Positions 12,528-58,567 are shown, numbered from the stretch's first letter. The stretch is 64,000 bases of DNA from a virus (IMGVR_UViG_3300028840_001835), one strand, 5' to 3'. The notes: generated by a model from the sequence alone, not told the origin. Made by a program: numbers and translations.

Positions 12528-13403
12528 TTATCCTTCCAGATAATTCTTAAGGTTTTCGGAGACAGTCGTTTCGAGACCGCCTTTCAATCTTCCAATAACT
12601 TCATCGACATCCTGTTTGAGACAAAATGCACCAACAAGCAATTCTCTCAGCTGTGCAAATGAGAATCCATCTGTCTTTTCAGCCAACGCCTTAATCTCCT
12701 TGGTGGTTTTCTGACCCTTCAATTTACTTTCAAGATATGCGATACGTCCGTTGACGGGTGGATTATCTATCTCGATCTTTCTATCAAATCTTGAGGGTCT
12801 TAGAATCCTTGCAGGTAGTTTTTCTATGTAATTGGTCGTTCCCAAGAACAATACATTGTCCATCTGATTCTCTCCGTCGAACAATTCAAGTATAGAATGT
12901 TCACCATATCTAACGATCTCATCAATATCTTCCATCACACAAAGAATCTTTCTATCCTTCTCTATATCTTTGATCAATCCAAGAGAATCGGTAAGGAGTC
13001 TTCCCTCTTTTGCGATTAGAACTACGTTACCCTTCTTTATAGAATCTTCCATTGCCAATTTTAACAGACAGGATTTTCCGGAACCCGGAACACCATAAAG
13101 CAGAACTCCTCTCTTATGTGTAAACCCTAGTCCCTTGTAATCGTCCTTCAGTCCCCAGAACTTATCTATCTCCTCGAGTATCTTATTATATCTTGAGTCC
13201 TCAAATCTAAGAATCTCATCGGTGTTCATATCATGCTGCTCAAAGAATATACCTTGCATGTTTCTACCGATCTGATATATACCAGGGGGTATTGTTGGTT
13301 CAGTCACGACTTCACCGACGGGTTGAAAAGTGTTGTCCTTGACAATATATTTCTTGAAAATCTGTTTTCTCTTTCCTTCCGTCAGATATTTAATAAAGTC
13401 CAT
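12528..13403 (-). CDS. AAA+ ATPase (classic clade) with capsid-targeting-like leader
   Basis: Walker A GVPGSGKS, Walker B CVMEDID, SRH TTNY...LRPSRFDRKI; starts MDFIKYLTE. Confidence 0.9.
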   Translation of the reverse strand: MDFIKYLTEGKRKQIFKKYIVKDNTFQPVGEVVTEPTIPPGIYQIGRNMQGIFFEQHDMNTDEILRFEDSRYNKILEEIDKFWGLKDDYKGLGFTHKRGVLLYGVPGSGKSCLLKLAMEDSIKKGNVVLIAKEGRLLTDSLGLIKDIEKDRKILCVMEDIDEIVRYGEHSILELFDGENQMDNVLFLGTTNYIEKLPARILRPSRFDRKIEIDNPPVNGRIAYLESKLKGQKTTKEIKALAEKTDGFSFAQLRELLVGAFCLKQDVDEVIGRLKGGLETTVSENLKNYLEG

Positions 13404-13435: not shown

Positions 13436-13443
13436 TATTTATA
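13436..13443 (-). promoter_or_regulatory. T4-type late promoter TATAAATA
   Basis: Exact match upstream of the AAA+ ATPase. Confidence 0.8.
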
Positions 13444-24883: not shown

Positions 24884-25117
24884 TTATTTAAAAAGGGACT
24901 TTGAGGTATTGAAGATCCATTTGGCCTGATCGGGTGAGAAGGACTTTTCTTTCTTGTAATAGTCCATGATACCCTGTGCCATCTTCAGCATCTCCTTCCC
25001 ATCCTTCTCAAGATTGTCATTCTTCTTGAGGGAACCTATGATAGCCTCGAGTGCGCCCTTTGCGTCCTCTGTACTACCCTCACAAAGCTGATCAACTAGG
25101 TATTGGTTAAAATTCAT
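24884..25117 (-). CDS. Putative internal head protein
   Basis: Starts MNFNQYLVDQLCE|G. Confidence 0.55.
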   Translation of the reverse strand: MNFNQYLVDQLCEGSTEDAKGALEAIIGSLKKNDNLEKDGKEMLKMAQGIMDYYKKEKSFSPDQAKWIFNTSKSLFK

Positions 25118-25132
25118 GATGTATCTCCTGTG

Positions 25133-25816
25133 TTATTCGTTACCAAGTTTTGCTTTAAGTTTTTCAATGTCCTTGTCAATAGCAGCGAGCTTGTCCTTAT
25201 TCTCAGTCCCCTCCTTCTGCTTCTCCAACTTCTCAATCTCTTTATTAATACTCTCTTTTGCTTTCTCGATTCTTGCCTTGATGGCGTCCTTTGCTGCGTC
25301 CTTTACAGACTTTCCAGCCTCGACCCCTTTCTCCACAGCACCGACAAGTGCAGGGTCAATTTTGGTTGCAATATTTTTCAATCCAGAACCAAGACCCTTG
25401 CCAAGTGACTTCATCGCTCCGGCGACCGCAGCTTTTGTATTCTTTAACTGCTCTTTAGAAACCGCCTTGGAACCCTTTTCTTCCTTTTCCTTACCCTCGG
25501 GTTCTTCTCCTTTAGTCTCTTTCTCTTTTGGCTTCTCCGCTGTATCGCCTTCCTTTCCTTTTCCTTTCACGTTTTTATCGAATGACATATTCCTAGTAAT
25601 ATCTGCAAGAGCTTGCTGTTGACCATCTGTCAGATGGTTGTTCTTCTGCAAATACTTCTTGAGATCCTCCAGGAATTTGGACTGTTTTGTTTCACTACCT
25701 ATCTCGGCCAGGGCTCTATTGATATAAAGTATGGTGTCCTCTGCGTACCCTTCATTCAGGGGTTCAAAGCGACCCTCGCCATACATCGCCTGTAACCAAT
25801 AGTTTGCGTCCTTCAT
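25133..25816 (-). CDS. Lys/Glu-rich putative internal head protein
   Basis: Leader ends ...FEPLNE|G; highly charged; first gene after late promoter 25836. Confidence 0.55.
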   Translation of the reverse strand: MKDANYWLQAMYGEGRFEPLNEGYAEDTILYINRALAEIGSETKQSKFLEDLKKYLQKNNHLTDGQQQALADITRNMSFDKNVKGKGKEGDTAEKPKEKETKGEEPEGKEKEEKGSKAVSKEQLKNTKAAVAGAMKSLGKGLGSGLKNIATKIDPALVGAVEKGVEAGKSVKDAAKDAIKARIEKAKESINKEIEKLEKQKEGTENKDKLAAIDKDIEKLKAKLGNE

Positions 25817-25843: not shown

Positions 25844-26443
25844 CTATTCACGGACTTCTGGATACTTGATTCCTTTTTCATCCTTGAGATACACCTTCAA
25901 AGTGTCCAATTCAGACTGGGTCACGGTGAGTCCCCATCTAACCTTTACATTGTTCCATTTCTTACAATATCGCGGTTTCAATCGCTCCGGAATCTTCAAC
26001 CACTTGTCTGGACTTTTAGAACCTTTTGATCGGTTCTGCGATTTGGACACTGCTATCAGATGATCCGGATCATGTAAGTAATTGGCATACTCCATCTTTT
26101 TTGTTGAATTCCATGCCCAGGCTCCCGATATATGTGCGTCCTTTAGGGGGACTGTATGATCTATATCTATGTCCTTTGGATCGGTGAACCACTGACCAGT
26201 AAATAGATCAAACCATAGCCCCGATGTGACCCTGCACTGCTTGTCTGTCTTGAATTCCAATTCACCTATGTAGTAAAAATGTTCATCAACAAAGACCTCT
26301 TGTCTAGTGTCCCTACAATTCTTATCCTCATCGACCCAATGCTTGTAATCTTTTCTATCATATTTCGGAATAGTATCAACATATACACTATCACCCAAAC
26401 CAAGTTTTAAGCAAAGTAATATCGCAATTAAAAATAATTTCAT
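25844..26443 (-). CDS. Signal-peptide-bearing HNH nuclease (DUF1524/GmrSD C-terminal-like)
   Basis: MKLFLIAILLCLKLGLG leader; YDRKDYKHW, DIDH.VPL..AH.SGAWAW, LIAVS...NRSKG.K.PD.W. Confidence 0.8.
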   Translation of the reverse strand: MKLFLIAILLCLKLGLGDSVYVDTIPKYDRKDYKHWVDEDKNCRDTRQEVFVDEHFYYIGELEFKTDKQCRVTSGLWFDLFTGQWFTDPKDIDIDHTVPLKDAHISGAWAWNSTKKMEYANYLHDPDHLIAVSKSQNRSKGSKSPDKWLKIPERLKPRYCKKWNNVKVRWGLTVTQSELDTLKVYLKDEKGIKYPEVRE

Positions 26444-26455
26444 TTCAATTCTCCT

Positions 26456-27046
26456 TTATATTTCAAACGATTTAATTATTTGGGAAAGTATATCTTCTTT
26501 GTTCTTGCTCTTTGGCTGAATCTTGACCAGTTTGGCAAACTTCTGCCTTCGCTGTTTCATCGTTGGAGGTTTCTTTGGTTCCAATAATTTCTTGGTCACC
26601 TTGGGTCTGGGCGAGGCCTTGGGTTTGGTGTAGAATTTCTTCACCTGTGCCACGTTATTTACAATTCCGATCTCTGATGGCTTGACCCATTCTGGGGGAT
26701 GTCCGAACTCCTTCTGATAACCTCGTACCCCGGCGCCCCTTTCTAGGTCTCCGCGAAACCAAACGGTAGCTGGGAGCTTTTTAATGCCAGTGTCTATGGC
26801 TATCTGAATTCGATGATTCCCCTCTGTGACCAACGCCCATTCCCGGTGTAAATCATATGTAATGGTAAGTGGTACCTTTATACCTTTCTTGAGTATGTCC
26901 TTTTTTAATTTCTGATATGTTTCTGGCGAATGTTTACTAAAGGTTAGATTACTTCGGTCGTATTCCCTAAACATTCGGAGTACATCGGTCCTGATCATTT
27001 CTACCTTATTAGCTGGACCCTCGACTATGAGTTGACGAAAATTCAT
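26456..27046 (-). CDS. ParB/Srx-like domain protein with capsid-targeting-like leader
   Basis: LKKDILKKGIKVPL...VTEGNHRIQIA...LPATV; starts MNFRQLIVE|G. Confidence 0.75.
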   Translation of the reverse strand: MNFRQLIVEGPANKVEMIRTDVLRMFREYDRSNLTFSKHSPETYQKLKKDILKKGIKVPLTITYDLHREWALVTEGNHRIQIAIDTGIKKLPATVWFRGDLERGAGVRGYQKEFGHPPEWVKPSEIGIVNNVAQVKKFYTKPKASPRPKVTKKLLEPKKPPTMKQRRQKFAKLVKIQPKSKNKEDILSQIIKSFEI

Positions 27047-27612
27047 GCCGTCCCTTTTATAAACTTATGAAACCTCTCTATAGCACCCTCTAAAGTCTTT
27101 GCAGTGTTAAACGCCCTATGTGTATTGGTGACGAAGGTTACGTTTCCCTTCTCATCTATACTCTTCCAAACAGCGGGCGTTGCCTGACCCTTTGGTCCAT
27201 TATGCCACATCGCCTTCTTATCTATGCAGAGCTTTCTCTCATCATCGGTGAGAGTTTTCTTATTCTCTTTCAATTTTTCAAAATCCAAATGACTCTCCCT
27301 AAGACAAAAATCTTTCAATGTCTTTTCAATTATCTTTGTGGTTTTCTGTTTGATGTTTATGCCCGTCAGTCTACTAAATAGTTCCCTTGACACCTTATTC
27401 TTTCTATGTCCGACGGCCATTAGTAATGATCCATAGTCTCTATCGTCAATGAGATTTTTCAATTTATCATACCAGTCCTTCTGTTGTCCACGGATAAGGT
27501 CTTTCTTAATCTTTCCAAAATGACCTCTCTTATAAAACTTCTCAAAAGTCTTTTCAAAAATCTTCTCTTCCTTCTCCTGTCGGTAGAACTGTTTGAAACT
27601 ACGCCTACTCAT
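27043..27612 (-). CDS. Basic hypothetical protein, possible internal head protein
   Basis: Starts MSRRSFKQFYRQE; K/R-rich; overlapping stop/start coupling. Confidence 0.55.
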   Translation of the reverse strand: MSRRSFKQFYRQEKEEKIFEKTFEKFYKRGHFGKIKKDLIRGQQKDWYDKLKNLIDDRDYGSLLMAVGHRKNKVSRELFSRLTGINIKQKTTKIIEKTLKDFCLRESHLDFEKLKENKKTLTDDERKLCIDKKAMWHNGPKGQATPAVWKSIDEKGNVTFVTNTHRAFNTAKTLEGAIERFHKFIKGTA

Positions 27613-29212: not shown

Positions 29213-29398
29213 TTATCGTTTTGTCCTTACCACGTTTGATACATTATATTTTTTCTTTAATGCCTCAACATCGTTTGATGTATCTATTACATTACCATCT
29301 TTGTCCCAGACTCCATATCTTTTAATAGGTAGTCCTTTAGGAGGTTCTCCTATATCAGTAATGTAATATTTTTCAATTATAAAATCTTTCCAGTCCAT
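29213..29398 (-). CDS. Putative internal head protein
   Basis: Starts MDWKDFIIE|K. Confidence 0.6.
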   Translation of the reverse strand: MDWKDFIIEKYYITDIGEPPKGLPIKRYGVWDKDGNVIDTSNDVEALKKKYNVSNVVRTKR

Positions 29399-42685: not shown

Positions 42686-43927
42686 TTAAATCAGGTTGGT
42701 CAAACCAGCAACGGCGAACTTCGTGTAATAACGAGATGCACCAAGCAAATTGCTAGTTATGGCATACCTAGACATAACCCCGATTCTTGGAGTGAAATCT
42801 TCCTGAGCCATAGCCCTGTTGAACAGACCGGTTACATAAGGCGAGAAGATAATACCGGCATCGGCAGTACCAGGACCCTTATATCCAACCAGAACGTTGT
42901 TATCAGTGTTATAGGTGTCACGGAAGACCCTAATTGTTCCGTTCAGTGTTCCAATCTCAGCGAATGTGTTTGAAGGATTCACATTGGCTTTGTTGGCAGT
43001 GAACAAACCATTGTTAGACAGTGCCTGCAGAGCAGTTGCAACCCTTGTTGAAACAACAACAAAGTTACCAACATCACGCCTCGTTCTGGTTCCAATGTTA
43101 TTGGACTCGAGGATTATCTTGTTGGCGAGGTTAGCGAAATGCTCCTGGGTCCAACGACCGCTTGATGCAGAGGCAGTGTAGGTACCTGCGTCAGACGCAG
43201 CGTCCTTCATGGCCTTCAACAGTTCCCTGTCGAGCTCAGCCTGAACCTCATACTGGAGAACATTCACCATCTCTCTCTCAATGTCCACACCGTGCATCGC
43301 TTTGATGTCCTGAGCGGATTCGAGTGAGAAACTAGCAGCCAGTTTCCTGGTCTTTGCTGTGATAGCAGTCTGATCAATCTTGAGTCCGAGTTCCGGAGTC
43401 TTAATCAGAGATGTATCGGTGTTGTTTCTTACAATGTTCCATGCTTCAGCGGCTGAAGTGTCAACGCCTGTTCCAGCATCAGCTGTACCAGATGTACCAC
43501 CAGCAGAAGTAGCATCGGAGCCAGTGTATCCAGAATACTGAGGCACAACATCAAATGCAGCTTCTTCACTATTTCCATCGTCCGCATAAATGAAGCGGAG
43601 AGCATAGGCGAGCCCAACGGGACCCGTCATGGCCTGCACGCCCACAACTTGGTTGGCGAACAAAGCAGGAAATGTGCGTCTTACCAGAGCCAGAGAGATC
43701 GGCGAAAAAGCACCGTCCTGCCCAGCGTGAGTCTGAGAAGCCACAGAAGTTGTGATAGCCTTACTACCTTCAAAAAGTTCTTCCTGAAGGTCAGCAGTCT
43801 TTTGGTTTTCTAACAAAATGGCCATGTTTTCTTTTACATAGTCATCAGAAATGTCGCCGACTGACATCCTTCCGATGTCTTCCCTGCTCCAATCTTCGAC
43901 CAGCTTTCTAACATAATCTTTTTCCAT
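42686..43927 (-). CDS. gp23: Major capsid protein gp23
   Basis: MAILLENQ, LVRRTFPAL.A..VVGVQAMTGPVGLAYALR, AQDIKAMHG.D.E, QAELDRE, YKG...DAGIIFSPY, IGVMSRY; start refined to MEKDY (SD AGGAG). Confidence 0.98.
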   Translation of the reverse strand: MEKDYVRKLVEDWSREDIGRMSVGDISDDYVKENMAILLENQKTADLQEELFEGSKAITTSVASQTHAGQDGAFSPISLALVRRTFPALFANQVVGVQAMTGPVGLAYALRFIYADDGNSEEAAFDVVPQYSGYTGSDATSAGGTSGTADAGTGVDTSAAEAWNIVRNNTDTSLIKTPELGLKIDQTAITAKTRKLAASFSLESAQDIKAMHGVDIEREMVNVLQYEVQAELDRELLKAMKDAASDAGTYTASASSGRWTQEHFANLANKIILESNNIGTRTRRDVGNFVVVSTRVATALQALSNNGLFTANKANVNPSNTFAEIGTLNGTIRVFRDTYNTDNNVLVGYKGPGTADAGIIFSPYVTGLFNRAMAQEDFTPRIGVMSRYAITSNLLGASRYYTKFAVAGLTNLI

Positions 43928-43987: not shown

Positions 43988-44830
43988 TTACAATAATTTA
44001 TTGGCCGAGCTCAAAAAGTCGGCGTAAGGTCCTGCCTTCTCCTTCTTTTCTTCCTCTTCCTGTTCCTTTTTCTCTTCCTCATTGAGATCGTCCTTGTCAG
44101 AATCGTCAATTCCATCCTCATCAGAGAAATTCTTTTCTTTGTCCTTTTCCTCTTCCTCGTTCAGTTCTTCACCTTTATCTTCGGTGTCATCCTCAACGAT
44201 GGCTACAAATCTGTCGATCTTTTCCTGGACATCCTCAAAAGTCTTGCCTTCGCAAAAAGCGGAAACACGATCCTTCTGGGTCTCGGTCAAATCAACGGTC
44301 TTGTCGGAAATAAGGAGCTTAATAGCTGCGCCCTCAGCGAGCTTTGCAAGTTCGATCTTCTCAGCCATAAGATCAGAATTCTGATCCTTGAGCTGCTGAA
44401 TCTCTTCCTTACTATCTGCAATAGCCTTTTCACCATCAGAGTCCAGTTCCACATACTTTTCTTCGAAAAGCTGCTTGATACCGTCCACGAGGGGCTTCAG
44501 TGATTCATTGATTGCGATCTTCTTGAGAGTTTCCTCGGAAATCTGCTCGGAGATTTCGACCTCTAGGAACTTGTCAAGTCTCTCGACCATCGTGTCCTCG
44601 AGTTCATCCATCTTCTTATCGTACTCAGCGATAAGTGCTTCCTTTTCCTTGTCAACCCCTTCAGCGATCTTCATCTGGCAAAATTCCTCAGCCTTCTCAT
44701 CGAGCTCCTTGGTCTTTTCCTCGACTCTCAATGCGACCTCGTCATCCACCATCTTCTGAATGCCTTCCTCAATTGTTTTTAAATCTTCAGGCGAAAGAAC
44801 TTCCTTAAGTTTTTCAGTAATCTTACTCAT
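43988..44830 (-). CDS. gp22: Prohead core scaffold gp22
   Basis: Acidic coiled coil, MVERLDKFLE, position between gp21 and gp23, repeated LxE motifs. Confidence 0.88.
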   Translation of the reverse strand: MSKITEKLKEVLSPEDLKTIEEGIQKMVDDEVALRVEEKTKELDEKAEEFCQMKIAEGVDKEKEALIAEYDKKMDELEDTMVERLDKFLEVEISEQISEETLKKIAINESLKPLVDGIKQLFEEKYVELDSDGEKAIADSKEEIQQLKDQNSDLMAEKIELAKLAEGAAIKLLISDKTVDLTETQKDRVSAFCEGKTFEDVQEKIDRFVAIVEDDTEDKGEELNEEEEKDKEKNFSDEDGIDDSDKDDLNEEEKKEQEEEEKKEKAGPYADFLSSANKLL

Positions 44831-44964: not shown

Positions 44965-45621
44965 TTATTTTCTACGTCCAGCCCAGCCGACCTTGATGTT
45001 ATCAAGAAAATCACTAAATGCTGCCGCGATCTCTCTGGAACCGTTTTTCTTCACGTTATTCTCCAAAGTATCGACTGCCTTCTCCACGATTCTGTTGTTA
45101 TTTATGATGAACTCTTTGTTCTCCAAGATACCATCAACAAAAGCATCCGGGGCCGATGGGTCAGCAACTATATCAACTGTTATAAGTTTGAAATCATCAT
45201 TCACCTTCGGACCATTAAGAGAACCTACACCCCTTGTCGATACACCGAGTTTTGTTCCGGCCTCGAGTAATGTATGTGCGATTCGTCCCTTTGGCGTATC
45301 CAGAATCTTTGCGACACCAATCCCGTTGTTTCCTTCCATAGAAAGAGATTCAATAAGATGGGACACACGTTCCAGATTTACTGTTGGTGACGGAGGATGG
45401 TCAAGTTCACCAAATGACCTTTTCTCTTTAATCTTTTCTTTGTTGAAACATTCAACCTCTCTCATAAGGAGGTTCTTCTCGTAAATTCGACCATTTCTAT
45501 TCTTGACCTCTGCTTGAAGAAAAGGACCTTTAATCCGAAAAGCCTTAGCTTTTCCATTATCATCCTGTTCACATACAATGTCAAGGTCTTGATGTTCGAT
45601 ATATTCCGTAATAAGTAGCAT
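44965..45621 (-). CDS. gp21: Prohead protease gp21
   Basis: KGPFLQAEVKNRNGRIY, GELDHP, VSHLI, TPKG, LGVSTRGVGS, DIVADPSAPDA. Confidence 0.96.
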   Translation of the reverse strand: MLLITEYIEHQDLDIVCEQDDNGKAKAFRIKGPFLQAEVKNRNGRIYEKNLLMREVECFNKEKIKEKRSFGELDHPPSPTVNLERVSHLIESLSMEGNNGIGVAKILDTPKGRIAHTLLEAGTKLGVSTRGVGSLNGPKVNDDFKLITVDIVADPSAPDAFVDGILENKEFIINNNRIVEKAVDTLENNVKKNGSREIAAAFSDFLDNIKVGWAGRRK

Positions 45622-52155: not shown

Positions 52156-52575
52156 TTAAATTCTGTATCCTTTCCCTGTGAACATGGATACTATTCGTTT
52201 TGTTTTTGGAAAAACTTTTTTGATCTTTGTCTCTAGTTTTTTCTTTTTTGCATCAGAAAGGGTCTTCGGACTAGGATAAGAATCGTCATCAACCTGAATC
52301 ACCGATGGTTTCTTTTTCTCATGTAGAAACGCATAAGTCATATCACGGAGAAATTTCTTCTGAATAACATGATGGAGAATATCCGCCCTCCATGCAAACA
52401 TTTTTAACTTTGAGTCAAAACAGAATCTAACATCGCCCGTGCCATCAGTTTTACTAATTGACTCTATCTCACTTCTGGTAGGATTCTCAAATATCTCCAC
52501 ATATTCTTTCCAACCATAAGGTCGAACAACGTCCGATGTATAGAATTTCTCTCTAAGATATTTTAACCAACCCAT
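52156..52575 (-). CDS. Putative internal head protein
   Basis: Start refined to MGWLKYLRE|K (SD GGAGAGG). Confidence 0.6.
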   Translation of the reverse strand: MGWLKYLREKFYTSDVVRPYGWKEYVEIFENPTRSEIESISKTDGTGDVRFCFDSKLKMFAWRADILHHVIQKKFLRDMTYAFLHEKKKPSVIQVDDDSYPSPKTLSDAKKKKLETKIKKVFPKTKRIVSMFTGKGYRI

Positions 52576-52576
52576 A

Positions 52577-52861
52577 TTAATCCCTCTCCAAAAACTTCTC
52601 CTTAAATACTTGGGCATCAAATACAATTTTTAATTTTGCATCAGCAATCTTAATTGCATTTTTATCTCTGCTCTTTTTAGCATCTTTCAATTTTTTACTA
52701 TATTCATGTTCCCAACTTATTAAATCGCCCATACTATTCATTGAAAGATGTTTTGCAAGGTCTTTTCTTTTTTGGGGAGATAGTTTAGTAACATCCTTTA
52801 CACCCTTAAATGGATCAGTGGGAGGGCCATACCCATTCTTTAAATATTCTTTCCAGTCCAT
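52577..52861 (-). CDS. Putative internal head protein
   Basis: Starts MDWKEYLKNG (leader variant lacking the Glu). Confidence 0.55.
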   Translation of the reverse strand: MDWKEYLKNGYGPPTDPFKGVKDVTKLSPQKRKDLAKHLSMNSMGDLISWEHEYSKKLKDAKKSRDKNAIKIADAKLKIVFDAQVFKEKFLERD

Positions 52862-52870
52862 ATACATCTC

Positions 52871-53104
52871 CTATAGGTCTATCCATTTCTTACCAATGAG
52901 AATTGAATGAAATCCCATCTTACGCATAAACTTCTTAACATTCTCTTCCTTACCAGTTACCCGAACCATACCCTCATCATCCAATAACTTGATCTTAACT
53001 CCAAACTTCTGAGCCTGATATTTTACATTCGGGTCTTTCGGATCCTCAAAATCCTGGACAGTGACGATCTTCTTCTCTGTCAAATACTTTTTCCACTTCA
53101 TCAA
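52871..53104 (-). CDS. Putative internal head protein
   Basis: Starts (M)MKWKKYLTE|K; first gene after late promoter 53128. Confidence 0.6.
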   Translation of the reverse strand: MMKWKKYLTEKKIVTVQDFEDPKDPNVKYQAQKFGVKIKLLDDEGMVRVTGKEENVKKFMRKMGFHSILIGKKWIDL

Positions 53105-53127
53105 AGGAAACTCTCCTGGTTTATTAG

Positions 53128-53135
53128 TATTTATA
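53128..53135 (-). promoter_or_regulatory. T4-type late promoter TATAAATA
   Basis: Exact match. Confidence 0.8.
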
Positions 53136-53156
53136 AAACTTTTTCAGACCCTAATC

Positions 53157-53164
53157 TATAAATA
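53157..53164 (+). promoter_or_regulatory. T4-type late promoter TATAAATA (divergent)
   Basis: Exact match on the plus strand upstream of 53248..53709. Confidence 0.8.
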
Positions 53165-53247
53165 CTTTTGGATGATTAACAACATCCTGAAAATGCATTT
53201 TTGAACCTGTATATAGCTATAACAATTCAACAAGGAGAATTAAAACA

Positions 53248-53709
53248 ATGGCCGATATAATCAAAGTAACAGGGACTACATTGTCAGCAACAACTGGCAC
53301 ACAGTTTGTTCCGTTCGACACTACTCGGTTTTTCAATGGCTCCGTCTTTGCTCTTTCCGGAACGAGCGCAGTAAACACGATTTCTGCTGGACCTATTAGG
53401 GTCGAAGCAAGTGTTAAAGTAAACCCAGCCGACAAGGTAAACCAGGAACTAATTCTGGACGTAAGGCAGGCAGGGGTTACAGTAGCATCTGCTGGCTTCG
53501 GTGAGCTTGATTCGATTAACATGAGATGGATACATGGTGGAGAAATCTGGGACCCAGACAAAGCCACATACGAAGGTGTCGAAAGCCTAACGCTCGGTGG
53601 ATCAACAATTGTTTCCGCCACAGCAAATGATCAGATAGGAGTATACCTGACTGGTCGGGTTGAGAGTGCGACAGTGACAGCGACATTGACATTAGAAAAC
53701 TTGAATTAA
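53248..53709 (+). CDS. Jelly-roll (C1q/TNF/BclA-C-like) virion protein
   Basis: VPFDT...FAL.G...I..G...V.ASV.V...TIVSA.AND.I.VY; SD AAGGAG; own late promoter and terminator. Confidence 0.5.
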   Translation: MADIIKVTGTTLSATTGTQFVPFDTTRFFNGSVFALSGTSAVNTISAGPIRVEASVKVNPADKVNQELILDVRQAGVTVASAGFGELDSINMRWIHGGEIWDPDKATYEGVESLTLGGSTIVSATANDQIGVYLTGRVESATVTATLTLENLN

Positions 53710-53720
53710 AATTAATTCAA
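53701..53720. repeat. Inverted repeat TTGAATTAA-aa-TTAATTCAA
   Basis: 9-bp arms spanning the stop of the plus-strand gene. Confidence 0.6.
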
Positions 53721-53729
53721 CTGATCCCG

Positions 53730-53755
53730 AAAGACCCCCATAAAGGGGGTCTTTT
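53730..53755. terminator. Bidirectional terminator between convergent genes
   Basis: AAAGACCCCC-ATAAA-GGGGGTCTTT(T). Confidence 0.8.
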
Positions 53756-55247
53756 ATATTTGGAATTTTCGATTGTAAAATGTAAATCCCTGCTCCTCAT
53801 AATACTTCAATCTCTCAAGATAGTGCTTGTATGTATGATTATGTCCAATGTTACCAGTTCGCTTCTTCCAAGTCAAATCATCAACAAAATCCCAAATTAT
53901 AACCTTTTCTTTACTTGAATGAGTTCTCAATCCACGACCTATCGCTTGAAGAACTTTTATCTTGGACTTATAACTACTCGCAAAGAATACATTGTGCATC
54001 TTTCTAATATTTACTCCGGTGCTCATCGTAGCATATGTCCCCACAAGGATCATATTCGACTCCTTCTCCATGAGATGGCGAATCGCTTCACGCTCCTCGG
54101 GTTTCGTCTTTCCATATATATTCACGATCATATACTTGTCAGGAAGTACATGCTCAAGATGTTCCTGAATCATTTTTAAATGTTCGATCTTTCTACATAA
54201 CACCAGAGAGTTTTGGCCGTCTGGAATATTATTGAATATTAAATCAAATATCTTATTACGCCCAACATGATTTATAATTGTGTCCTCTTCCTCATTATAC
54301 GGGCGGTTCCGGTTTTTCTGGATAACGGACTCTGGAAACTTCAGTAGGACGTTTACAATTTTAATCTTTGAAAGTATACCACGATCTATTAGCTCTTTGG
54401 ATATCTGTTTGAAAATAACAGGTCCAAGATATCCATGTATATTAAACAAGTCGGAGCGATTTGTTGGTAATGTACCCGTGTATCCAAAACGATATTCCGC
54501 CTCAGTGCATTTCTTTGATATGGATTGAATTGAAAGCGCCTTCGCCTGATGTGTCTCATCAACCATCAACACTCCGTACTTTTGAAAGAAAATCTTCTGC
54601 TTACGATGTATCGACTGCCACGTTGTTATGAGTACACTCTTTCTAAAATCTGGCTTTAGTCCAGAATATAATTTAGTCACCTTATAGTCAATATTCAACC
54701 ATCCATAATCCTGAAAGTCCGAATACATCTGCTCAACAAGAGATGTGGTCGGAACGATAAGAATGATTTTTCTATCTGGATCTTGAGCAAGAAGTAATCG
54801 TATTGTCATGTATATGGTCAATGATTTGCCGCTACCAGTGGGGGAAAGAATTACGCCCCGCTTGTTCCTTATAGAATTGGTAACCGCCTCGATCTGATAG
54901 TCGTATGGGTCGTACCTAGTATTTTCCATAAGCCCATTAGCGAATGACTCCACTTGTTCTATGGTCACATCATTACATAGTTCCGATGTATCGAAATCGA
55001 AACGATATTTGTAACCAAATTGCTTACAGAATCTATGGAAGTCTGGGAGCAACCCAACAGGTAGCAGCTTATTCTGCATATTAAAGAATGAGACTTTGCC
55101 GTCCCAAATCTTTGCTCTAAATTTTGGATGATACATATAATTCGGAACATGGCAGCTGAGGAAAGATTTTAGCTCCAATTCCTGATCAAGATGGCACCTG
55201 ACCCGTACATATACCTGATTCACTTTTTCAATTAAAATTTCATTCAT
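53754..55247 (-). CDS. uvsW: UvsW helicase
   Basis: SPTGSGKS, IVPTTSLVEQM, VDETH, GYTGT, STGVNI, VLQAIGRGLR, H..ERLKYY. Confidence 0.95.
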   Translation of the reverse strand: MNEILIEKVNQVYVRVRCHLDQELELKSFLSCHVPNYMYHPKFRAKIWDGKVSFFNMQNKLLPVGLLPDFHRFCKQFGYKYRFDFDTSELCNDVTIEQVESFANGLMENTRYDPYDYQIEAVTNSIRNKRGVILSPTGSGKSLTIYMTIRLLLAQDPDRKIILIVPTTSLVEQMYSDFQDYGWLNIDYKVTKLYSGLKPDFRKSVLITTWQSIHRKQKIFFQKYGVLMVDETHQAKALSIQSISKKCTEAEYRFGYTGTLPTNRSDLFNIHGYLGPVIFKQISKELIDRGILSKIKIVNVLLKFPESVIQKNRNRPYNEEEDTIINHVGRNKIFDLIFNNIPDGQNSLVLCRKIEHLKMIQEHLEHVLPDKYMIVNIYGKTKPEEREAIRHLMEKESNMILVGTYATMSTGVNIRKMHNVFFASSYKSKIKVLQAIGRGLRTHSSKEKVIIWDFVDDLTWKKRTGNIGHNHTYKHYLERLKYYEEQGFTFYNRKFQI

Positions 55248-55274
55248 ATCTTCAACCCTTACAAACTATAAGGA

Positions 55275-55282
55275 TATTTATA
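55275..55282 (-). promoter_or_regulatory. T4-type late promoter TATAAATA
   Basis: Exact match upstream of uvsW, which is also late-expressed in T4. Confidence 0.8.
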
Positions 55283-55290
55283 CTTTAAAA

Positions 55291-56358
55291 TTACTCGCCT
55301 AGAAATCTCTTTGGGTTGTCTGTAGCGATTGCTTTGAATTTCTTTTCACCTATAAACGAACGGAGTTCAACTCCATATCTTTTCTCGTCTGACTCCATCT
55401 CTACCATATAATAGTCCGAACCAAACAACACCTTATCCCTTACCTTCTTATCATTTAAAATATTATTCAATAAAGGAAAGAATCGTCTGTCGCTTAATGT
55501 GAAAGATATATCGGTATAAAAATTATCATGTCTTTTGATCAAATCCTTTATTATCCGATACCAGTTTCCCTTCATTCCGGGATCATCGAGATACTTATCC
55601 CACATATATGCAGAACCAAAATGACCAAAACAAATTCTTAGTTTCGGAAAATCCTTAATCACCCGAAGATAGTTAAGAGGGTTGGTGAACATAGAACAAA
55701 GTTCTTTTCTGTTCTTACCCTTAATCTTTACATTAGAATTTCCATCTCTTAATAATTTCTTTAGTTCTTTCTTCTTGCCCTTGAAATGGATCGGATTATA
55801 TGGACTACAATGCGCAAGTATAGGTAGATTTTTATTCTCACAAATTTGATATATTGGATACAATCTCTTATCATATGGGTAATATCCTAAAGGTGGGTAT
55901 AGCTTTACTCCACGAAAATCATGTCGTTCTACCGCAAACATAAACTCACTTAGAACTCCAGTTCGTCTGGGATCAACATGAAAGAACGGTATAACCTGTT
56001 CTGGATATTGTTTTCTAAGTAACTTTAGTTCATGTATCTGGTCGGAATATTCTCTGGGAACATCGCCCGCTCCCATATGTTCCATATCCATAGGAAGTAT
56101 TATGAATTTTGTTCCCTTTGGATAAAACTTGATTAATTTTTCAAATATCTTTTTCTGGGATCCAAGATCGCAAGTACGTGCGAATGTCGCATATCTATGA
56201 AGAAGGTCTTTATCAGTGAAAGGAATAAGCCCACTAAGAAACCCAGTGATCAACTTATTGCCCGGCTTGGTGCGTAATATTTTTACAAGGTAAGCTGGTA
56301 GCAACTTATCTGGTATATCAATGTCCAAGAATGTATGTGTATGACAGTTGTAGATCAC
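55291..56358 (-). CDS. Metal-dependent amidohydrolase (Amidohydro_2, TIM barrel)
   Basis: NCHTH, GVKLYPPLGY, LAHCS, CFGHFG, FYTDIS, LFGSDY. Confidence 0.88.
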   Translation of the reverse strand: MIYNCHTHTFLDIDIPDKLLPAYLVKILRTKPGNKLITGFLSGLIPFTDKDLLHRYATFARTCDLGSQKKIFEKLIKFYPKGTKFIILPMDMEHMGAGDVPREYSDQIHELKLLRKQYPEQVIPFFHVDPRRTGVLSEFMFAVERHDFRGVKLYPPLGYYPYDKRLYPIYQICENKNLPILAHCSPYNPIHFKGKKKELKKLLRDGNSNVKIKGKNRKELCSMFTNPLNYLRVIKDFPKLRICFGHFGSAYMWDKYLDDPGMKGNWYRIIKDLIKRHDNFYTDISFTLSDRRFFPLLNNILNDKKVRDKVLFGSDYYMVEMESDEKRYGVELRSFIGEKKFKAIATDNPKRFLGE

Positions 56359-56648
56359 TTTTTAAAAACAAATCTTATAGTGTTTGTTGAGGAATCAAAG
56401 CCCATCCATTCTAGATTTGAAAACTTCGCTATCTGTTTCAAATCTTTGGGGTAAAATGTACTTCCTTTTCCAAGTGAAGCATCAAGAGCAATATTCATCT
56501 TTTTATTTTGGGTTATCCAGTTTATTCTCAAAACAGAACTCTTAAATCTTGTGAAAAACTTTTTTAGATCGGGTTCAAGATCCTTGACCTCAAGAGGAAT
56601 TATATCCTCATTTATAAATTCCTCACTAATATATTCTTTCCAGTTCAT
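56355..56648 (-). CDS. Putative internal head protein
   Basis: Starts MNWKEYISE|E. Confidence 0.62.
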   Translation of the reverse strand: MNWKEYISEEFINEDIIPLEVKDLEPDLKKFFTRFKSSVLRINWITQNKKMNIALDASLGKGSTFYPKDLKQIAKFSNLEWMGFDSSTNTIRFVFKK

Positions 56649-56673
56649 AATTTCTTCCTTTCATTTTCCAAAA

Positions 56674-56979
56674 TTATCCTTTTTCTATAATAATCTTTTC
56701 CGAAGTTCTTTTGACCTTAAATCCTCGTTCCTTAAGTTTCTTATGAAAAGGTTTTCCTATGTATCTATCTAACATTATTTCAATTGAAGTTGTGTTATTA
56801 TTTTTACCCTTGATCTCGATTCTGTTCTTCTTTGAAAAGTTCAGATCGTTTCCCCATCTTTTATCCGTTTCTGTTCCGAATATATTCCAAATCTGTACCT
56901 TCAATTCATCCATCGGAGTATTTTTAGTGTGAGGTATCTTACCTTTCAGTTCTTCTTTAAGATATTCTTTCCAGTTCAT
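56674..56979 (-). CDS. Putative internal head protein
   Basis: Starts MNWKEYLKE|E. Confidence 0.62.
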   Translation of the reverse strand: MNWKEYLKEELKGKIPHTKNTPMDELKVQIWNIFGTETDKRWGNDLNFSKKNRIEIKGKNNNTTSIEIMLDRYIGKPFHKKLKERGFKVKRTSEKIIIEKG

Positions 56980-56983
56980 ATGA

Positions 56984-57184
56984 CTATCCTTTTATATCGG
57001 ACTCCTCTACTCTGAAGTCAGTTATCTTATCTCCTGTAAAATCAGCAGCATCTTTTCTTGCTTGTTCAGCTTTCTGCTTTGAATAGTATACACCAAAAGG
57101 AAGCGCCTTGTTGCTCCCTCTTTGGAATATCAAGACAAAGACCTTCTTGAATACTCCCTCTGTAACGTAGTCTGTAAACTTCAT
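56984..57184 (-). CDS. Putative internal head protein
   Basis: Starts MKFTDYVTE|G. Confidence 0.62.
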   Translation of the reverse strand: MKFTDYVTEGVFKKVFVLIFQRGSNKALPFGVYYSKQKAEQARKDAADFTGDKITDFRVEESDIKG

Positions 57185-57363
57185 ACTTTTTTATTGATTT
57201 GATATGTCCAATTTTTATCACTAACTTTTGTTATCTCAATCGTTGCGACCTCTCCATCTGCAAGGAGCATATTCACATCCTGAACAAACACCGTTGGTTT
57301 CTGTTTGTGTTGAATGCCTTTCTTGACTTTTCTTTCATTTAAAAAAGTTTTGAATCGACCCAT
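57181..57363 (-). CDS. Putative internal head protein
   Basis: Starts MGRFKTFLNE|R. Confidence 0.62.
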   Translation of the reverse strand: MGRFKTFLNERKVKKGIQHKQKPTVFVQDVNMLLADGEVATIEITKVSDKNWTYQINKKV

Positions 57364-57575
57364 TATAACCCCGCAGCTTTCTTGAATCTTTCCTCATCAA
57401 ATCTTGGGTTCGCCTTCGCAAATATATCGATCATCATCTTTGCCATCTCCTCTTTGGTCTTGGCGTCCTTTATCGCCTTGGCCATCGCCTGGAAATGTTG
57501 CTTGGTGAACGTGGTCTCAAGTATGACTTCCTCTTTAGGAATCTTTGGTATGAATCTATCTATAAATTCCTTCAT
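57363..57575 (-). CDS. Putative internal head protein
   Basis: Starts MKEFIDRF...VILE|T; C-terminal NPRFDEERFKKAAGL. Confidence 0.55.
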   Translation of the reverse strand: MKEFIDRFIPKIPKEEVILETTFTKQHFQAMAKAIKDAKTKEEMAKMMIDIFAKANPRFDEERFKKAAGL

Positions 57576-57576
57576 G

Positions 57577-57948
57577 TTATTTCCTCACAAATGATTTGAT
57601 AAATGCCTTCTCTTCCTCAGACGCACCTTTTTTGGCGCCACCCTGAACGAAAGACTTAACAAATGCCTTCGCCTCTGGAGAGGAATAATAATCACCCTTA
57701 GTATATCTGTTTATATCTCGGAGGCTATTGAGAACCTGGGTGAGTCGTAGTAATGTTCCAGACTGTTTATTTGTATTCCATTCCTTCTTGAGAGTAGATA
57801 ACACCTTTGAAACATTTTTCATCAATGTATCGGCCTCCTTGAAGTTCTTCCGAGCCATCTTATCAAACCCAGAAGCGTCTGCCTCTTTGATGAATTCAGT
57901 TGGCTTCTCATTCATCCATGTTCTGGCATCTTTTGTTAAATCTGACAT
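57577..57948 (-). CDS. Putative internal head protein
   Basis: Leader ...RTWMNE|KPTEFIKE|A. Confidence 0.52.
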   Translation of the reverse strand: MSDLTKDARTWMNEKPTEFIKEADASGFDKMARKNFKEADTLMKNVSKVLSTLKKEWNTNKQSGTLLRLTQVLNSLRDINRYTKGDYYSSPEAKAFVKSFVQGGAKKGASEEEKAFIKSFVRK

Positions 57949-57957
57949 ATGTACCTC

Positions 57958-58230
57958 TTATCCGATTCCGCTTGATATACTAACCCCCATAGAGACTAAC
58001 GCATCATTAAGCGGTGAACCGTGTTGAACTTTTTTCTTATCTATCTCGACCTCTATGTTCCATCGTCCAGCGCCTGTCTGGAAATCGTTCTCGACCTTAC
58101 CACCATGTTTCTTAATAAGTTCGATCACTTTGGTTTTCATTTGAAAACCTTTTTTCCCCTTTCCATAAAGAGAGAAAGTCCAATAGTTTGGACCTCTCTT
58201 TGCCTCACCGATGTAATCCAGAAATCTCAT
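57958..58230 (-). CDS. Putative internal head protein
   Basis: Starts MRFLDYIGE|A. Confidence 0.62.
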   Translation of the reverse strand: MRFLDYIGEAKRGPNYWTFSLYGKGKKGFQMKTKVIELIKKHGGKVENDFQTGAGRWNIEVEIDKKKVQHGSPLNDALVSMGVSISSGIG

Positions 58231-58282
58231 AGAAACCTCTACATAGGATTGAAATAGTTATGTATATGACAAAGGAGCAAGA

Positions 58283-58522
58283 TTATTTCTTCTTACAATC
58301 TTTCTTTTCGTTTTTCTTCTCGTCCTTCTCTTCCTCGTCATCTTCTTCTTTATCGTCTTTATCCTCAGAATCGTCCTTATCCTTGGACTCTTCCTCGTCA
58401 TCCTTTTCCTTGTCTTCCTTTTCTTTATCTTCCTCTTCCTGCTCCTTCACCTTCTTTTCTTCGAGTTCTTCTTTGGACTCATCCTCTTCGAGGTACTTGT
58501 TTAATCTATCCAATACTGTCAT
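58283..58522 (-). CDS. Extremely charged D/E/K low-complexity protein, putative core/internal protein
   Basis: MTVLDRLNKYLEE| followed almost only by D/E/K; first gene after late promoter 58560. Confidence 0.65.
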   Translation of the reverse strand: MTVLDRLNKYLEEDESKEELEEKKVKEQEEEDKEKEDKEKDDEEESKDKDDSEDKDDKEEDDEEEKDEKKNEKKDCKKK

Positions 58523-58559: not shown

Positions 58560-58567
58560 TATTTATA
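58560..58567 (-). promoter_or_regulatory. T4-type late promoter TATAAATA
   Basis: Exact match heading the small-gene array. Confidence 0.8.

What the first reader, a model, noticed from the sequence alone, without database searches (positions are those of the whole stretch)
52156..58522. Large arsenal of proteins sharing a T4-like capsid-targeting leader: a packaged, injectable effector set
Seen: 11 small unrelated ORFs here start M-x-[WF]-x-x-[YF]-[LIV]-x-E or a variant: MGWLKYLRE, MDWKEYLKN, MKWKKYLTE, MNWKEYISE, MNWKEYLKE, MKFTDYVTE, MGRFKTFLNE, MRFLDYIGE, ...LNKYLEE and two looser cases. Seven more are scattered elsewhere (12106, 12528, 24884, 25133, 26456, 27043, 29213). Four share ATG[GA]ACTGGAAAGA at the DNA level, but their bodies differ. 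All are under TATAAATA promoters. Known: T4 IPIII uses MKTYQEFIAE for prohead targeting, gp21 cleaves after [IL]-x-E, and IPI* blocks GmrSD. The gp21 here is intact and LxE sites occur in gp22 and gp23. Inference: a portable ~10-aa address tag shuffled onto ~18 cargoes, several-fold more than T4's three IPs, giving a rich pool of candidate day-zero anti-defence or host-takeover proteins.
Basis: partly seen in the sequence, partly recalled or inferred. Interest (0 to 1): 0.88.

Follow-up and report, generated by a model that had tools for sequence, protein, structure and literature searches.

The report
Capsid-loading leader on many phage proteins
An uncultured marine T4-like phage starts two to three dozen otherwise unrelated late proteins with a nine-residue tag that matches, residue for residue in its functional positions, the tag phage T4 uses to load proteins into its head and then cut off, so it probably packs and injects a much larger protein set than T4, though no experiment shows this yet.

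Summary
In a complete 202.5-kb T4-like phage genome, 24 of 367 ORFs start M-x(1-3)-[FWY]-x-x-[FYWL]-[LIVMY]-x-[ED], against 5 of 1307 internal Met (p=3e-12). Twelve clear and six looser cases lie in this window, eleven of them at 52156-58522.

- **Selection:** it acts on the protein, not the DNA.
- **Location:** the tag is absent from early and replication zones (0/158) and confined to zones with TATAAATA late promoters (24/176).
- **Cargo:** the bodies are mostly unrelated and unusually basic.
- **Match to T4:** the conserved positions match the four positions of T4's MKTYQEFIAE that genetics assigns to targeting (4, 7) and to processing (8, 10).
- **Head genes:** a gp21-type protease, a scaffold and a capsid protein with L-x-E at the T4-equivalent cleavage point are present.
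- **Calibration:** the same ruler finds 5 hits in T4 and 0-1 in two cultured marine relatives.
- **Relatives:** one cargo family has 927 metagenomic representatives. In its tandem polyproteins the cleavage half of the tag recurs at internal junctions, while the targeting half stays at true N-termini.

Packaging, cleavage, injection and any anti-defence role remain untested. This scan noted the same phenomenon earlier, on this genome and on other uncultured T4-like phages. Verdict: a new variant of the known T4 capsid-targeting system.

The parts
58560..58567 (-). TATAAATA late-promoter-like site heading a nine-gene operon (58522 down to 55291)
   Evidence: 28 sites in the window against 5.5 expected, 27 on the coding strand
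58283..58522 (-). 79-aa extremely acidic Glu/Asp/Lys-rich protein (mature pI 4.3) with a displaced leader MTVLDRLNKYLEE; first gene of the operon; possibly a core or scaffold-like component
   Evidence: no Pfam family
57958..58230 (-). 90-aa cargo, leader MRFLDYIGE, mature pI 9.9; ferredoxin/ACT-like fold as a lead only
57577..57948 (-). 123-aa basic protein; loose, displaced leader (PTEFIKE at residues 16-22)
   Evidence: no family
57363..57575 (-). 70-aa basic protein; loose leader (MKEFIDRF, then VILE ending at residue 20)
57181..57363 (-). 60-aa cargo, leader MGRFKTFLNE (one extra residue before the first aromatic)
56984..57184 (-). 66-aa cargo, leader MKFTDYVTE; weak DUF7336 / phrog_3002 match that covers residues 14-65 only, so the leader lies outside the family profile
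56674..56979 (-). 101-aa cargo, leader MNWKEYLKE, mature pI 10.0
56355..56648 (-). 97-aa cargo, leader MNWKEYISE
55291..56358 (-). 355-aa amidohydrolase (PF04909), last gene of the operon, without a leader
53754..55247 (-). UvsW helicase with its own TATAAATA (55275-55282); no leader; splits the two leader clusters
53128..53135 (-). TATAAATA site heading the three-gene leader cluster 53101-52156
52871..53101 (-). 76-aa cargo, leader MKWKKYLTE, mature pI 9.6
52577..52861 (-). 94-aa cargo, leader MDWKEYLKN (Asn where Glu is expected; may be targeted but not cut at this site)
   Evidence: PMC9026906 for the effect of changing residue 10 in T4
52156..52575 (-). 139-aa cargo, leader MGWLKYLRE; member of a five-paralogue family (A1) with 927 metagenomic representatives; confident alpha/beta model without a solved relative
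29213..29398 (-). 61-aa cargo, leader MDWKDFIIE, between neck/tail genes
27043..27612 (-). 189-aa basic protein just after the small terminase gene; loose leader MSRRSFKQFYRQE
26456..27046 (-). 196-aa cargo, leader MNFRQLIVE, pI 10.2; ParB N-terminal-domain-like as a lead only
25133..25816 (-). 227-aa protein; very loose leader (MKDANYWLQAMYGE); doubtful member
24884..25117 (-). 77-aa cargo, leader MNFNQYLVD (Asp at the last position)
12528..13403 (-). 291-aa AAA+ ATPase (PF00004) with leader MDFIKYLTE directly behind TATAAATA (13436-13443); orthologues at 58-77% identity keep the leader across a linker of 1-22 residues
12106..12522 (-). 138-aa acidic protein; loose leader MKFKQYIICE
44965..45621 (-). 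gp21-type prohead protease (218 aa)
   Evidence: phrog_207, 2e-66; T4 gp21 structure 5jbl, 4e-20
43988..44830 (-). gp22-type scaffold protein with 17 [LIV]-x-E sites
42686..43927 (-). gp23-type major capsid protein; 5 of its 6 [LIV]-x-E sites lie in the first 53 residues; LQE49 and LFE53 sit where T4 gp23 is cut (after residue 65, which aligns to about residue 48 here)
   Evidence: propeptide length from PMC9026906
61129..61590 (+). gp55-type late sigma factor, which gives the TATAAATA sites their meaning

Best explanation
The shared N-terminus is a T4-type capsid targeting sequence with a built-in prohead-protease site.

Proposed course of events:
1. The tagged genes are transcribed late from gp55-dependent TATAAATA promoters, while proheads assemble.
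2. The first nine to thirteen residues form a short amphipathic helix. Its hydrophobic face (aromatic, x, x, aromatic or Leu, aliphatic) docks the protein onto the scaffolding core, so it is enclosed in the prohead.
3. The gp21-type protease then cuts after the Glu of [L/I/V]-x-E. This removes the tag and frees the mostly basic mature protein.
4. The mature protein stays with the DNA in the head and leaves with it at infection.

Shown here: the motif, its restriction to true N-termini and to late-promoter zones, selection at the protein level, its modularity, the basic cargo, the head genes, and the split behaviour of the two halves of the tag in relatives.

Inferred, not shown: binding to the core, enclosure, cleavage, ejection, and what any cargo does in the host.
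For: 1. **Enrichment.** 24/367 N-termini against 5/1307 internal Met, p=3e-12. There were no ORF-start matches in 740 kb of related loci.
2. **Same functional positions as T4.** In MKTYQEFIAE (PMC8442874), residues 4 and 7 carry targeting and residues 8 and 10 carry processing (PMC9026906). Here the conserved residues are aromatic-3, aromatic-6, aliphatic-7 and Glu-9, which is the same spacing.
3. **Protein-level selection.** Information per base is 1.12 bits at codon positions 1-2 and 0.43 at position 3.
4. **Late context.** The motif is in 0/158 ORFs in early/replication zones and 24/176 in late-promoter zones, p=1e-7. TATAAATA occurs 28 times in the window against 5.5 expected. A gp55 homologue is present, and there is no excess of sigma-70-like sites.
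5. **Machinery.** gp21-, gp22- and gp23-like genes are present. The capsid protein has LQE49/LFE53 at the T4-equivalent cleavage point, and 5 of its 6 sites lie in the first 53 residues.
6. **Cargo charge, a feature independent of the motif.** Mature pI is at least 9 in 31/40 tagged proteins, against 50/159 controls (p=2e-7) and 14% of late-arm controls. T4 internal proteins are basic and contact DNA (PMC3012670).
7. **Modularity.**
   - The bodies are unrelated.
   - The family profiles of the AAA ATPase and of DUF7336 start after the tag.
   - AAA orthologues keep the tag across linkers of 1 to 22 residues.
   - In the AF2 model of family A1 the tag is the only low-confidence part.
8. **Relatives.** In tandem polyproteins of family A1, an aliphatic residue at -2 from the Glu is found at 71% of internal junctions (88% at N-termini, 22% background). 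The two targeting positions fall to background at internal junctions (35% and 11%, against 77% and 54% at N-termini).
9. **Calibration.** The same caller and pattern recover T4 ipII and ipIII.
Against: - No protein-level data exist. The phage is uncultured, no RNA run holds it, and no virion proteome is available.
- Three clear tags end in Asp or Asn. In T4, Asp at that position blocks processing.
- About a third of the 40 candidates are loose matches whose false-positive rate I could not estimate.
- [LI]-x-E is not significantly depleted in the mature parts (observed/expected 0.82 against 1.19 in controls).
- In family A1 the tag is inherited with the domain across hundreds of homologues. Part of its conservation, including Leu at -2, could therefore be structural.
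- Two cultured marine relatives lack the motif, so no published proteome can be transferred.
- Large tagged enzymes such as the AAA ATPase in the baseplate module could be assembly factors rather than cargo.
Confidence: 0.66

Rival explanations
1. The tag does send proteins into the prohead, but most of them are core, filler or charge-balancing components (like T4 gp67, gp68 or bulk IPIII) that are degraded or merely coat the DNA. They are not host-directed effectors. On this reading the 'arsenal' is mostly head chemistry.
For: - The cargo is uniformly basic and small.
- The most multiplied family (A1) has no enzyme-like solved relative. In relatives it is encoded as long tandem polyproteins, which suits a bulk component.
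- An extremely acidic protein heads the operon.
- T4 core proteins are also gp21 substrates (PMC9026906).
Against: - Tagged proteins include enzymes: an AAA ATPase in this window and, by earlier notes on this genome that I did not re-test, nuclease-, NUDIX- and CCA-adding-type proteins.
- The many unrelated folds are hard to explain by a purely physical role.
Confidence: 0.2
2. The shared N-terminal helix is a docking or recognition tag for some other common partner of late proteins, such as a chaperone, a modifying enzyme, a protease that controls their level, or a membrane or assembly site. It has nothing to do with the capsid interior.
For: - Short amphipathic N-terminal helices serve many purposes.
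- Elsewhere in this scan a shared phage N-terminal tag turned out to track a radical-SAM enzyme rather than the capsid (note e1-127136).
- More distant AAA-ATPase homologues carry other short acidic N-terminal helices.
Against: - The four conserved positions are exactly those defined genetically for the T4 CTS, and the tag ends in the gp21 motif.
- The only radical-SAM gene of the genome (34063-34320 on the genome) lies in the early/metabolic zone, far from any tagged gene.
- The cleavage half alone persists at polyprotein junctions, which fits a protease site and not a docking tag.
Confidence: 0.1
3. The similarity has no function of its own. It is either a remnant of common descent or recombination at gene starts, or an mRNA-level element for translation start or regulation.
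For: Four genes share 14-18 identical bases at the start. T4-type phages are known to shuffle genes at short shared sequences (my own knowledge).
Against: - Conservation is in codon positions 1-2 and not 3. Trp, Phe and Tyr interchange, and so do Leu, Ile and Val.
- The tag is kept in orthologues at 58-77% identity next to variable linkers, and in hundreds of family A1 members below 50% identity.
- The bodies are unrelated.
Confidence: 0.04

Closest known systems
Capsid targeting sequence of phage T4 internal proteins IPII and IPIII (MKTYQEFIAE; Mullaney and Black 1996, as reviewed in PMC9026906 and PMC3012670)
   Same: - It is the extreme N-terminal tag of about ten residues.
- Aromatic residues sit three apart, followed by an aliphatic residue, any residue and Glu.
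- It ends in the gp21 motif L/I-x-E.
- The genes are late, the cargo is basic and otherwise unrelated, and gp21/gp22/gp23 homologues are in the same genome.
   Different: - It is one residue shorter before the first aromatic, and uses Trp/Phe where T4 has Tyr.
- It occurs on 24 to about 40 proteins, against 2-5 in T4 by the same ruler.
- The cargo includes enzymes up to 490 aa.
- There is no sequence similarity to the IPII or IPIII bodies (best E 0.6).
- Nothing has been tested experimentally.
Polymorphic internal-protein loci of T-even phages (Repoila et al. 1994, cited in PMC9026906; paper not held)
   Same: Different, unrelated basic proteins in related phages keep a CTS-like N-terminus. 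The tag is the conserved part and the cargo the variable part.
   Different: There it is a few genes per phage at one or two loci in enterobacterial phages. Here there are dozens per genome, in several late operons, in a marine lineage only 37% identical to known phages in UvsW.
Inner-body and ejection proteins of phiKZ-like giant phages (phiKZ, 201phi2-1, SPN3US), processed by a gp21-related protease (PMC9026906, PMC5694885)
   Same: Many head-internal proteins are cut after Glu by a prohead protease related to gp21. A large protein mass is delivered with the DNA.
   Different: Their motif is S/A-x-E and no short shared N-terminal address tag is described. This phage is a classical T4-type genome with L/I/V-x-E.
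Phage P1 Dar anti-restriction proteins with an N-terminal packaging signal in DarB (PMC9024508)
   Same: An N-terminal segment is sufficient to send a foreign protein into the capsid. The cargo is delivered to counter host defence.
   Different: No consensus is shared among the Dar proteins and the signal is longer than nine residues. The head assembly system is unrelated and no protease-site logic is known.

Membership tests
T4-type capsid targeting sequence (CTS) proteins | The tag sits at the extreme N-terminus, within the first 10-19 residues | tested here: met
   14 of 15 strict matches are at ORF starts. 24/367 N-termini match against 5/1307 internal Met.
T4-type capsid targeting sequence (CTS) proteins | Hydrophobic or aromatic residues at the two targeting positions (T4 residues 4 and 7) | tested here: met
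   Trp/Phe/Tyr at position 3 and Tyr/Phe/Leu at position 6, three apart as in T4. T4 genetics from PMC9026906.
T4-type capsid targeting sequence (CTS) proteins | Ends in the gp21 processing motif L/I-x-E (T4 residues 8 and 10) | tested here: met
   22 of the 24 pattern matches end in [LIVMY]-x-Glu and two end in Asp. One further clear case ends in Asn.
T4-type capsid targeting sequence (CTS) proteins | A gp21-family prohead protease and a gp22-type scaffolding core in the same genome | tested here: met
   phrog_207 2e-66 and PDB 5jbl 4e-20 for 44965-45621; phrog_237 for 43988-44830.
T4-type capsid targeting sequence (CTS) proteins | Made late, while proheads assemble | tested here: inconclusive
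   All tagged genes lie in operons behind TATAAATA, and there are none in early zones. gp55 is present. This is promoter motif only; no transcript data exist.
T4-type capsid targeting sequence (CTS) proteins | The tag is sufficient to enclose a protein in the head | not testable with these tools
   Needs a leader-reporter fusion in an infected host or a surrogate T4 system.
T4-type capsid targeting sequence (CTS) proteins | The tag is removed by cleavage after Glu | not testable with these tools
   Needs N-terminal mass spectrometry or an in vitro protease assay. Indirect evidence: the cleavage half persists at polyprotein junctions in relatives.
T4-type capsid targeting sequence (CTS) proteins | The mature protein is ejected into the host with the DNA | not testable with these tools
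   No cultured host.
Homologues of T4 IPII / IPIII proteins | Sequence similarity of the mature protein to T4 internal proteins | tested here: not met
   BLASTP of T4 ipII and ipIII against all 40 candidates: best E 0.6. The likeness is in the tag only.
phiKZ-type inner-body proteins | S/A-x-E processing motif and a phiKZ-like head gene set | tested here: not met
   The motif here is L/I/V-x-E and the head genes are classical T4-type.
Leader peptides recognised by a neighbouring radical-SAM/SPASM maturase | A radical-SAM enzyme encoded close to the tagged genes | tested here: not met
   There is one radical-SAM match in the genome, at 34063-34320 in the early/metabolic zone, not near any tagged gene.

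The most novel reading that the evidence does not exclude
This lineage loads a capsid-delivered proteome of 25-40 different proteins, enzymes included. It does so through a two-part code that can be read from sequence alone: a targeting half needed only at the true N-terminus, and a cleavage half that can also be used internally. In relatives the commonest cargo is therefore made as polyproteins of up to ten units, which the prohead protease cuts apart inside the head. If true, the injected protein set of uncultured T4-like phages could be predicted from genomes.
Probability: 0.4. Interest if true: 0.8.

Novelty: new variant of a known kind. Interest (0 to 1): 0.62.

Why it matters
T4's three internal proteins are the textbook case of proteins injected with phage DNA, and one of them defeats a restriction enzyme. 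If a tag readable from sequence marks dozens of such proteins in environmental T4-like phages, the first-minute protein payload of uncultured phages becomes predictable.

That would give a defined candidate list for counter-defence and host-takeover functions. The natural tag variants could also extend the T4 protein-packaging technology.

The split between targeting and cleavage halves seen in natural polyproteins is an evolutionary confirmation of genetics done on one T4 protein. The papers I could search hold no report of such expansions. The idea itself is foreshadowed in the Black review (PMC9026906).

Tried and rejected
- **Nearest DNA relatives:** a megablast of the region against 50,697 phage records found no match.
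- **Families for the small cargos:** Pfam and PHROGs give nothing above threshold for ten small cargos.
- **Homologue searches:**
  - Word-based searches for the 66-aa and 196-aa cargos returned only the query itself.
  - tblastn of a family A1 member and of the 66-aa cargo against deposited phages found no match.
- **Leader as a DNA pattern:** two back-translated patterns scanned over IMG/VR gave no match. By my estimate of its information content, the second pattern is expected less than once by chance, so this only says that close relatives are rare there.
- **UvsW neighbourhoods:** 80 loci at 37-50% identity carry no such N-termini.
- **Complex prediction:** scaffold plus the 76-aa cargo gave no verdict (score 0.02, controls not run). 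This is no evidence either way.
- **Fold searches of the family A1 model:**
  - Foldseek against PDB gave nothing at E<=0.001.
  - VIA-align gave a best Z of 4.1.
  - AlphaFold DB gave only uncharacterised clusters and weak matches to the C-terminal regions of RHS / toxin-43 entries. I do not build on these.
- **Atlas look-ups:** nothing for the 101-aa cargo. ACT-like and ParB_N-like results for two others are leads only.
- **Depletion of [LI]-x-E in mature cargo:** a trend only, not significant.
- **Late-promoter proximity:** my first version of this test was spoiled by a spurious antisense ORF and a 5-kb cut-off. I replaced it.
- **Sequencing runs:** two DNA metagenomes hold the region and no RNA holder is listed, so there is no expression evidence.
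- **Literature:** Repoila et al. 1994 is not held. Petrov et al. 2010 does not mention internal proteins.

Full report
**What the DNA is.** The window is the minus strand of bases 84165-148164 of a single 202,503-bp virus record with direct terminal repeats, rated complete. It is a T4-type phage.
- The window holds portal, gp21-type prohead protease, scaffold, major capsid protein, sheath, tube, terminase, baseplate genes, UvsW, UvsY and a gp55-type late sigma factor.
- Its UvsW is only 37% identical to the nearest deposited phages, Pelagibacter phage HTVC008M and cyanophages, and at most 50% to IMG/VR contigs.
- The region is held by a sediment and a seawater metagenome.

**The observation.**
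- I called ORFs over the whole genome with a simple greedy caller (367 ORFs). The pattern M-x-[WFY]-x-x-[YFW]-[LIVM]-x-[EDNQ] then hits 15 Met positions, 14 of them at ORF starts.
- A slightly wider pattern that allows one to three residues before the first aromatic hits 24 of 367 N-termini and 5 of 1307 internal Met (p=3e-12).
- The pattern is rare in general. In 740 kb of related loci read in six frames it occurs 14 times and never at an ORF start.
About 40 candidates exist genome-wide if displaced or one-residue-longer variants are admitted. I cannot give a false-positive rate for those.
- One correction: the flagged region has only three TATAAATA sites on the coding strand, at 58560, 55275 and 53128. 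Each heads an operon, so there is not one per gene.

**Is it DNA, RNA or protein?** Among 20 tags in the same register, information per base averages 1.12 bits at codon positions 1 and 2 and 0.43 at position 3. Trp, Phe and Tyr replace each other, as do Leu, Ile and Val. Selection is therefore on the peptide. The four genes that share ATG[GA]ACTGGAAAGA are the exception, not the rule.

**Are the bodies unrelated?** All-against-all BLASTP of the parts behind the tag finds one family of five paralogues, which includes 52156-52575, and one weak pair. Nothing else matches.
- The small cargos have no Pfam or PHROG family.
- Where a family is recognised, its profile starts behind the tag. The AAA ATPase 12528-13403 matches from residue 18, and the DUF7336-like 66-aa protein from residue 14.
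- Orthologues of the AAA ATPase at 58-77% identity all keep a tag of this type. It is followed by a linker of 1 to 22 residues before the conserved core.
- On a 253-kb relative the ATPase gene again stands behind TATAAATA, between two other tagged genes.
- In a confident AF2 model of the five-paralogue family (pLDDT 85.6), the first ten residues are the only weak part, with a mean of 53.

**Comparison with T4.** The T4 tag is MKTYQEFIAE (PMC8442874).
- Amber-suppression genetics on IPIII places targeting mainly at residues 4 and 7 and processing at residues 8 and 10. Asp at residue 10 blocks processing but not targeting. gp21 cuts after Glu in L/I-x-E (PMC9026906).
- The residues conserved here are aromatic-3, aromatic-6, aliphatic-7 and Glu-9. 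That is the same four positions with one residue fewer after the Met.
- The phage's capsid protein aligns with T4 gp23 so that the T4 cut after residue 65 falls at about residue 48, where LQE49 and LFE53 stand. Five of its six [LIV]-x-E sites lie in the first 53 residues.
- The scaffold has 17 such sites.

Zones of the genome without coding-strand TATAAATA (the replication genes and the two early arms) hold 158 ORFs of 55 aa or more, and none carries the tag. Zones with such promoters hold 24 tagged ORFs among 176 (p=1e-7). The flagged region shows no excess of sigma-70-like sites. The motif is therefore not equally common in early genes.

**An independent property of the cargo.** Behind the tag, 31 of 40 candidates have pI of 9 or more. 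The figure is 50 of 159 for other ORFs and 14% for other late-arm ORFs (p=2e-7). T4 internal proteins are basic and touch the packaged DNA (PMC3012670).

**Calibration.** The same caller and pattern run on T4 give five N-terminal hits.
- Two are ipII and ipIII, confirmed by the record's annotation.
- One is gp61.1 (MKTFKEFIKE), a small ORF of unknown function.
- One is a weak match on the ORF over gene 61.4.
- One is an evident false positive at 144561-145112, which I take to be thymidylate synthase from its N-terminus; I did not check its annotation.
- HTVC008M gives 0 and Prochlorococcus phage P-TIM68 gives 1.

So the expansion is about fivefold over T4 and is not a general trait of marine T4-like phages.

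**Evidence from relatives.** A profile of the five-paralogue family finds 927 representatives at E<=0.001 among 1.84 billion proteins, and none among deposited phage genomes.
- The single-domain members, about 130-145 aa and all below 50% identity to each other, nearly all begin MKF-x-[DQ]-L-L-N-E-K-[FY].
- Half of the best 150 hits are tandem polyproteins of up to ten units.
- One of them, of 1285 aa, lies on a T4-like contig. Several of its neighbours begin with an aliphatic form of the tag: MKLFELLDE, MKVIDILSE, MNLTEVLSD.
- I anchored each unit on the domain's own E-x-[FWY] and forced nothing else. The residue two before the Glu is then aliphatic in 88% of N-terminal units and 71% of internal junctions, against 22% background.
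- The two targeting positions are hydrophobic or aromatic in 77% and 54% of N-terminal units. At internal junctions they fall to 35% and 11%, which is background.
- The cleavage half is thus kept wherever a unit begins, and the targeting half only where the protein begins. This is what the T4 genetics predicts for polyproteins cut inside the head.
- A caveat: Leu at -2 could also be a structural part of the domain.

**What the cargos are.** Mostly unknown.
- Family A1 is an alpha/beta fold without a solved relative.
- The 90-aa cargo looks ferredoxin/ACT-like and the 196-aa cargo ParB-N-terminal-like. Both are leads only.
- One cargo is an AAA ATPase.
- Nothing here supports or excludes an anti-defence role.

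**Rivals.**
- A capsid-directed tag on mostly bulk or core proteins, rather than effectors, is the main alternative reading of function.
- A tag for another partner is made unlikely by the exact match to the T4 functional positions, by the junction result, and by the absence of a neighbouring maturase.
- A DNA- or RNA-level element, or a recombination relic, is made unlikely by the codon-position result and by conservation across distant orthologues.

**Relation to earlier notes of this scan.**
- The same genome was already reported to carry about 28 tagged proteins, with a late operon of tagged enzymes outside my window (e1-5368925, e1-5368921).
- Similar tags were noted on several other uncultured T4-like phages (e1-3862018, e1-5358537 and others).
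- My counts and the polyprotein junctions were obtained independently here and agree with those notes.
- I found no paper in the library I could search that describes such expansions. The Black review states the general idea that the CTS may let T4-like phages load various proteins.

**Verdict.** The feature is real, highly non-random and well explained: a lineage-specific and strongly expanded variant of the T4 capsid targeting sequence. The mechanism is inferred with about two-in-three confidence. The effector interpretation is open.

Noticed in passing
L085:18966-19130 (phage T4, NC_000866, gene 61.1): T4's own small ORF gp61.1, annotated hypothetical, begins MKTFKEFIKE. This is a close copy of the capsid targeting sequence, and the same pattern that finds ipII and ipIII picks it up.
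   Followed up: partly
L084:10001-13858 (JGI metagenome contig, T4-like, with Cpn10): A 1285-aa protein made of nine tandem copies of the 139-aa cargo family, most units preceded by [LIV]-x-E-E-W. An 804-aa protein of the same family lies 350 bases downstream. Family-wide, 74 of the best 150 representatives are longer than 190 aa and carry two or more units.
   Followed up: partly
window 25844-26443 (-): A 199-aa protein with a lipoprotein-like hydrophobic N-terminus and a GmrSD C-terminal (DUF1524-type) nuclease domain (PF07510, 9e-6). It sits among tagged genes between the small and large terminase genes.
   Followed up: no
window 50358-51836 (-): A 492-aa late protein with a collagen-like Gly-x-y run. 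About residues 12-21 read EEYREFIKGE, which resembles the T4 tag but is displaced and one residue longer. No Pfam family.
   Followed up: no
window 53248-53709 (+): The only convincing plus-strand gene inside the late arm. It encodes a 153-aa Thr/Ser/Gly-rich protein with its own TATAAATA at 53157-53164, wedged between UvsW and a tagged-gene cluster. No family.
   Followed up: no
L083 (G000:C1:2000-18500); genome 2291, 2919, 16880, 17992: Four more tagged small genes lie in the tRNA region of the genome. At least three directly follow tRNA-like 3' ends, and three are directly behind TATAAATA.
   Followed up: no
L081 (G000:C1:59612-60562, minus strand): A 316-aa ORF contains MKTFRKFVEE at an internal Met (residue 33), almost the T4 tag. 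The true start may be there.
   Followed up: no
P0159-P0264 (homologues of window 12528-13403): More distant homologues of the tagged AAA ATPase carry other short N-terminal helices, such as M-S-[KR]-A-[KR]-[ED]-L-L-E or acidic [DE]-L-N-[DE]-[FL]-[LIM]. The N-terminal address may therefore be older and more varied than the aromatic form.
   Followed up: partly
None lies in a tagged gene.
   Followed up: no
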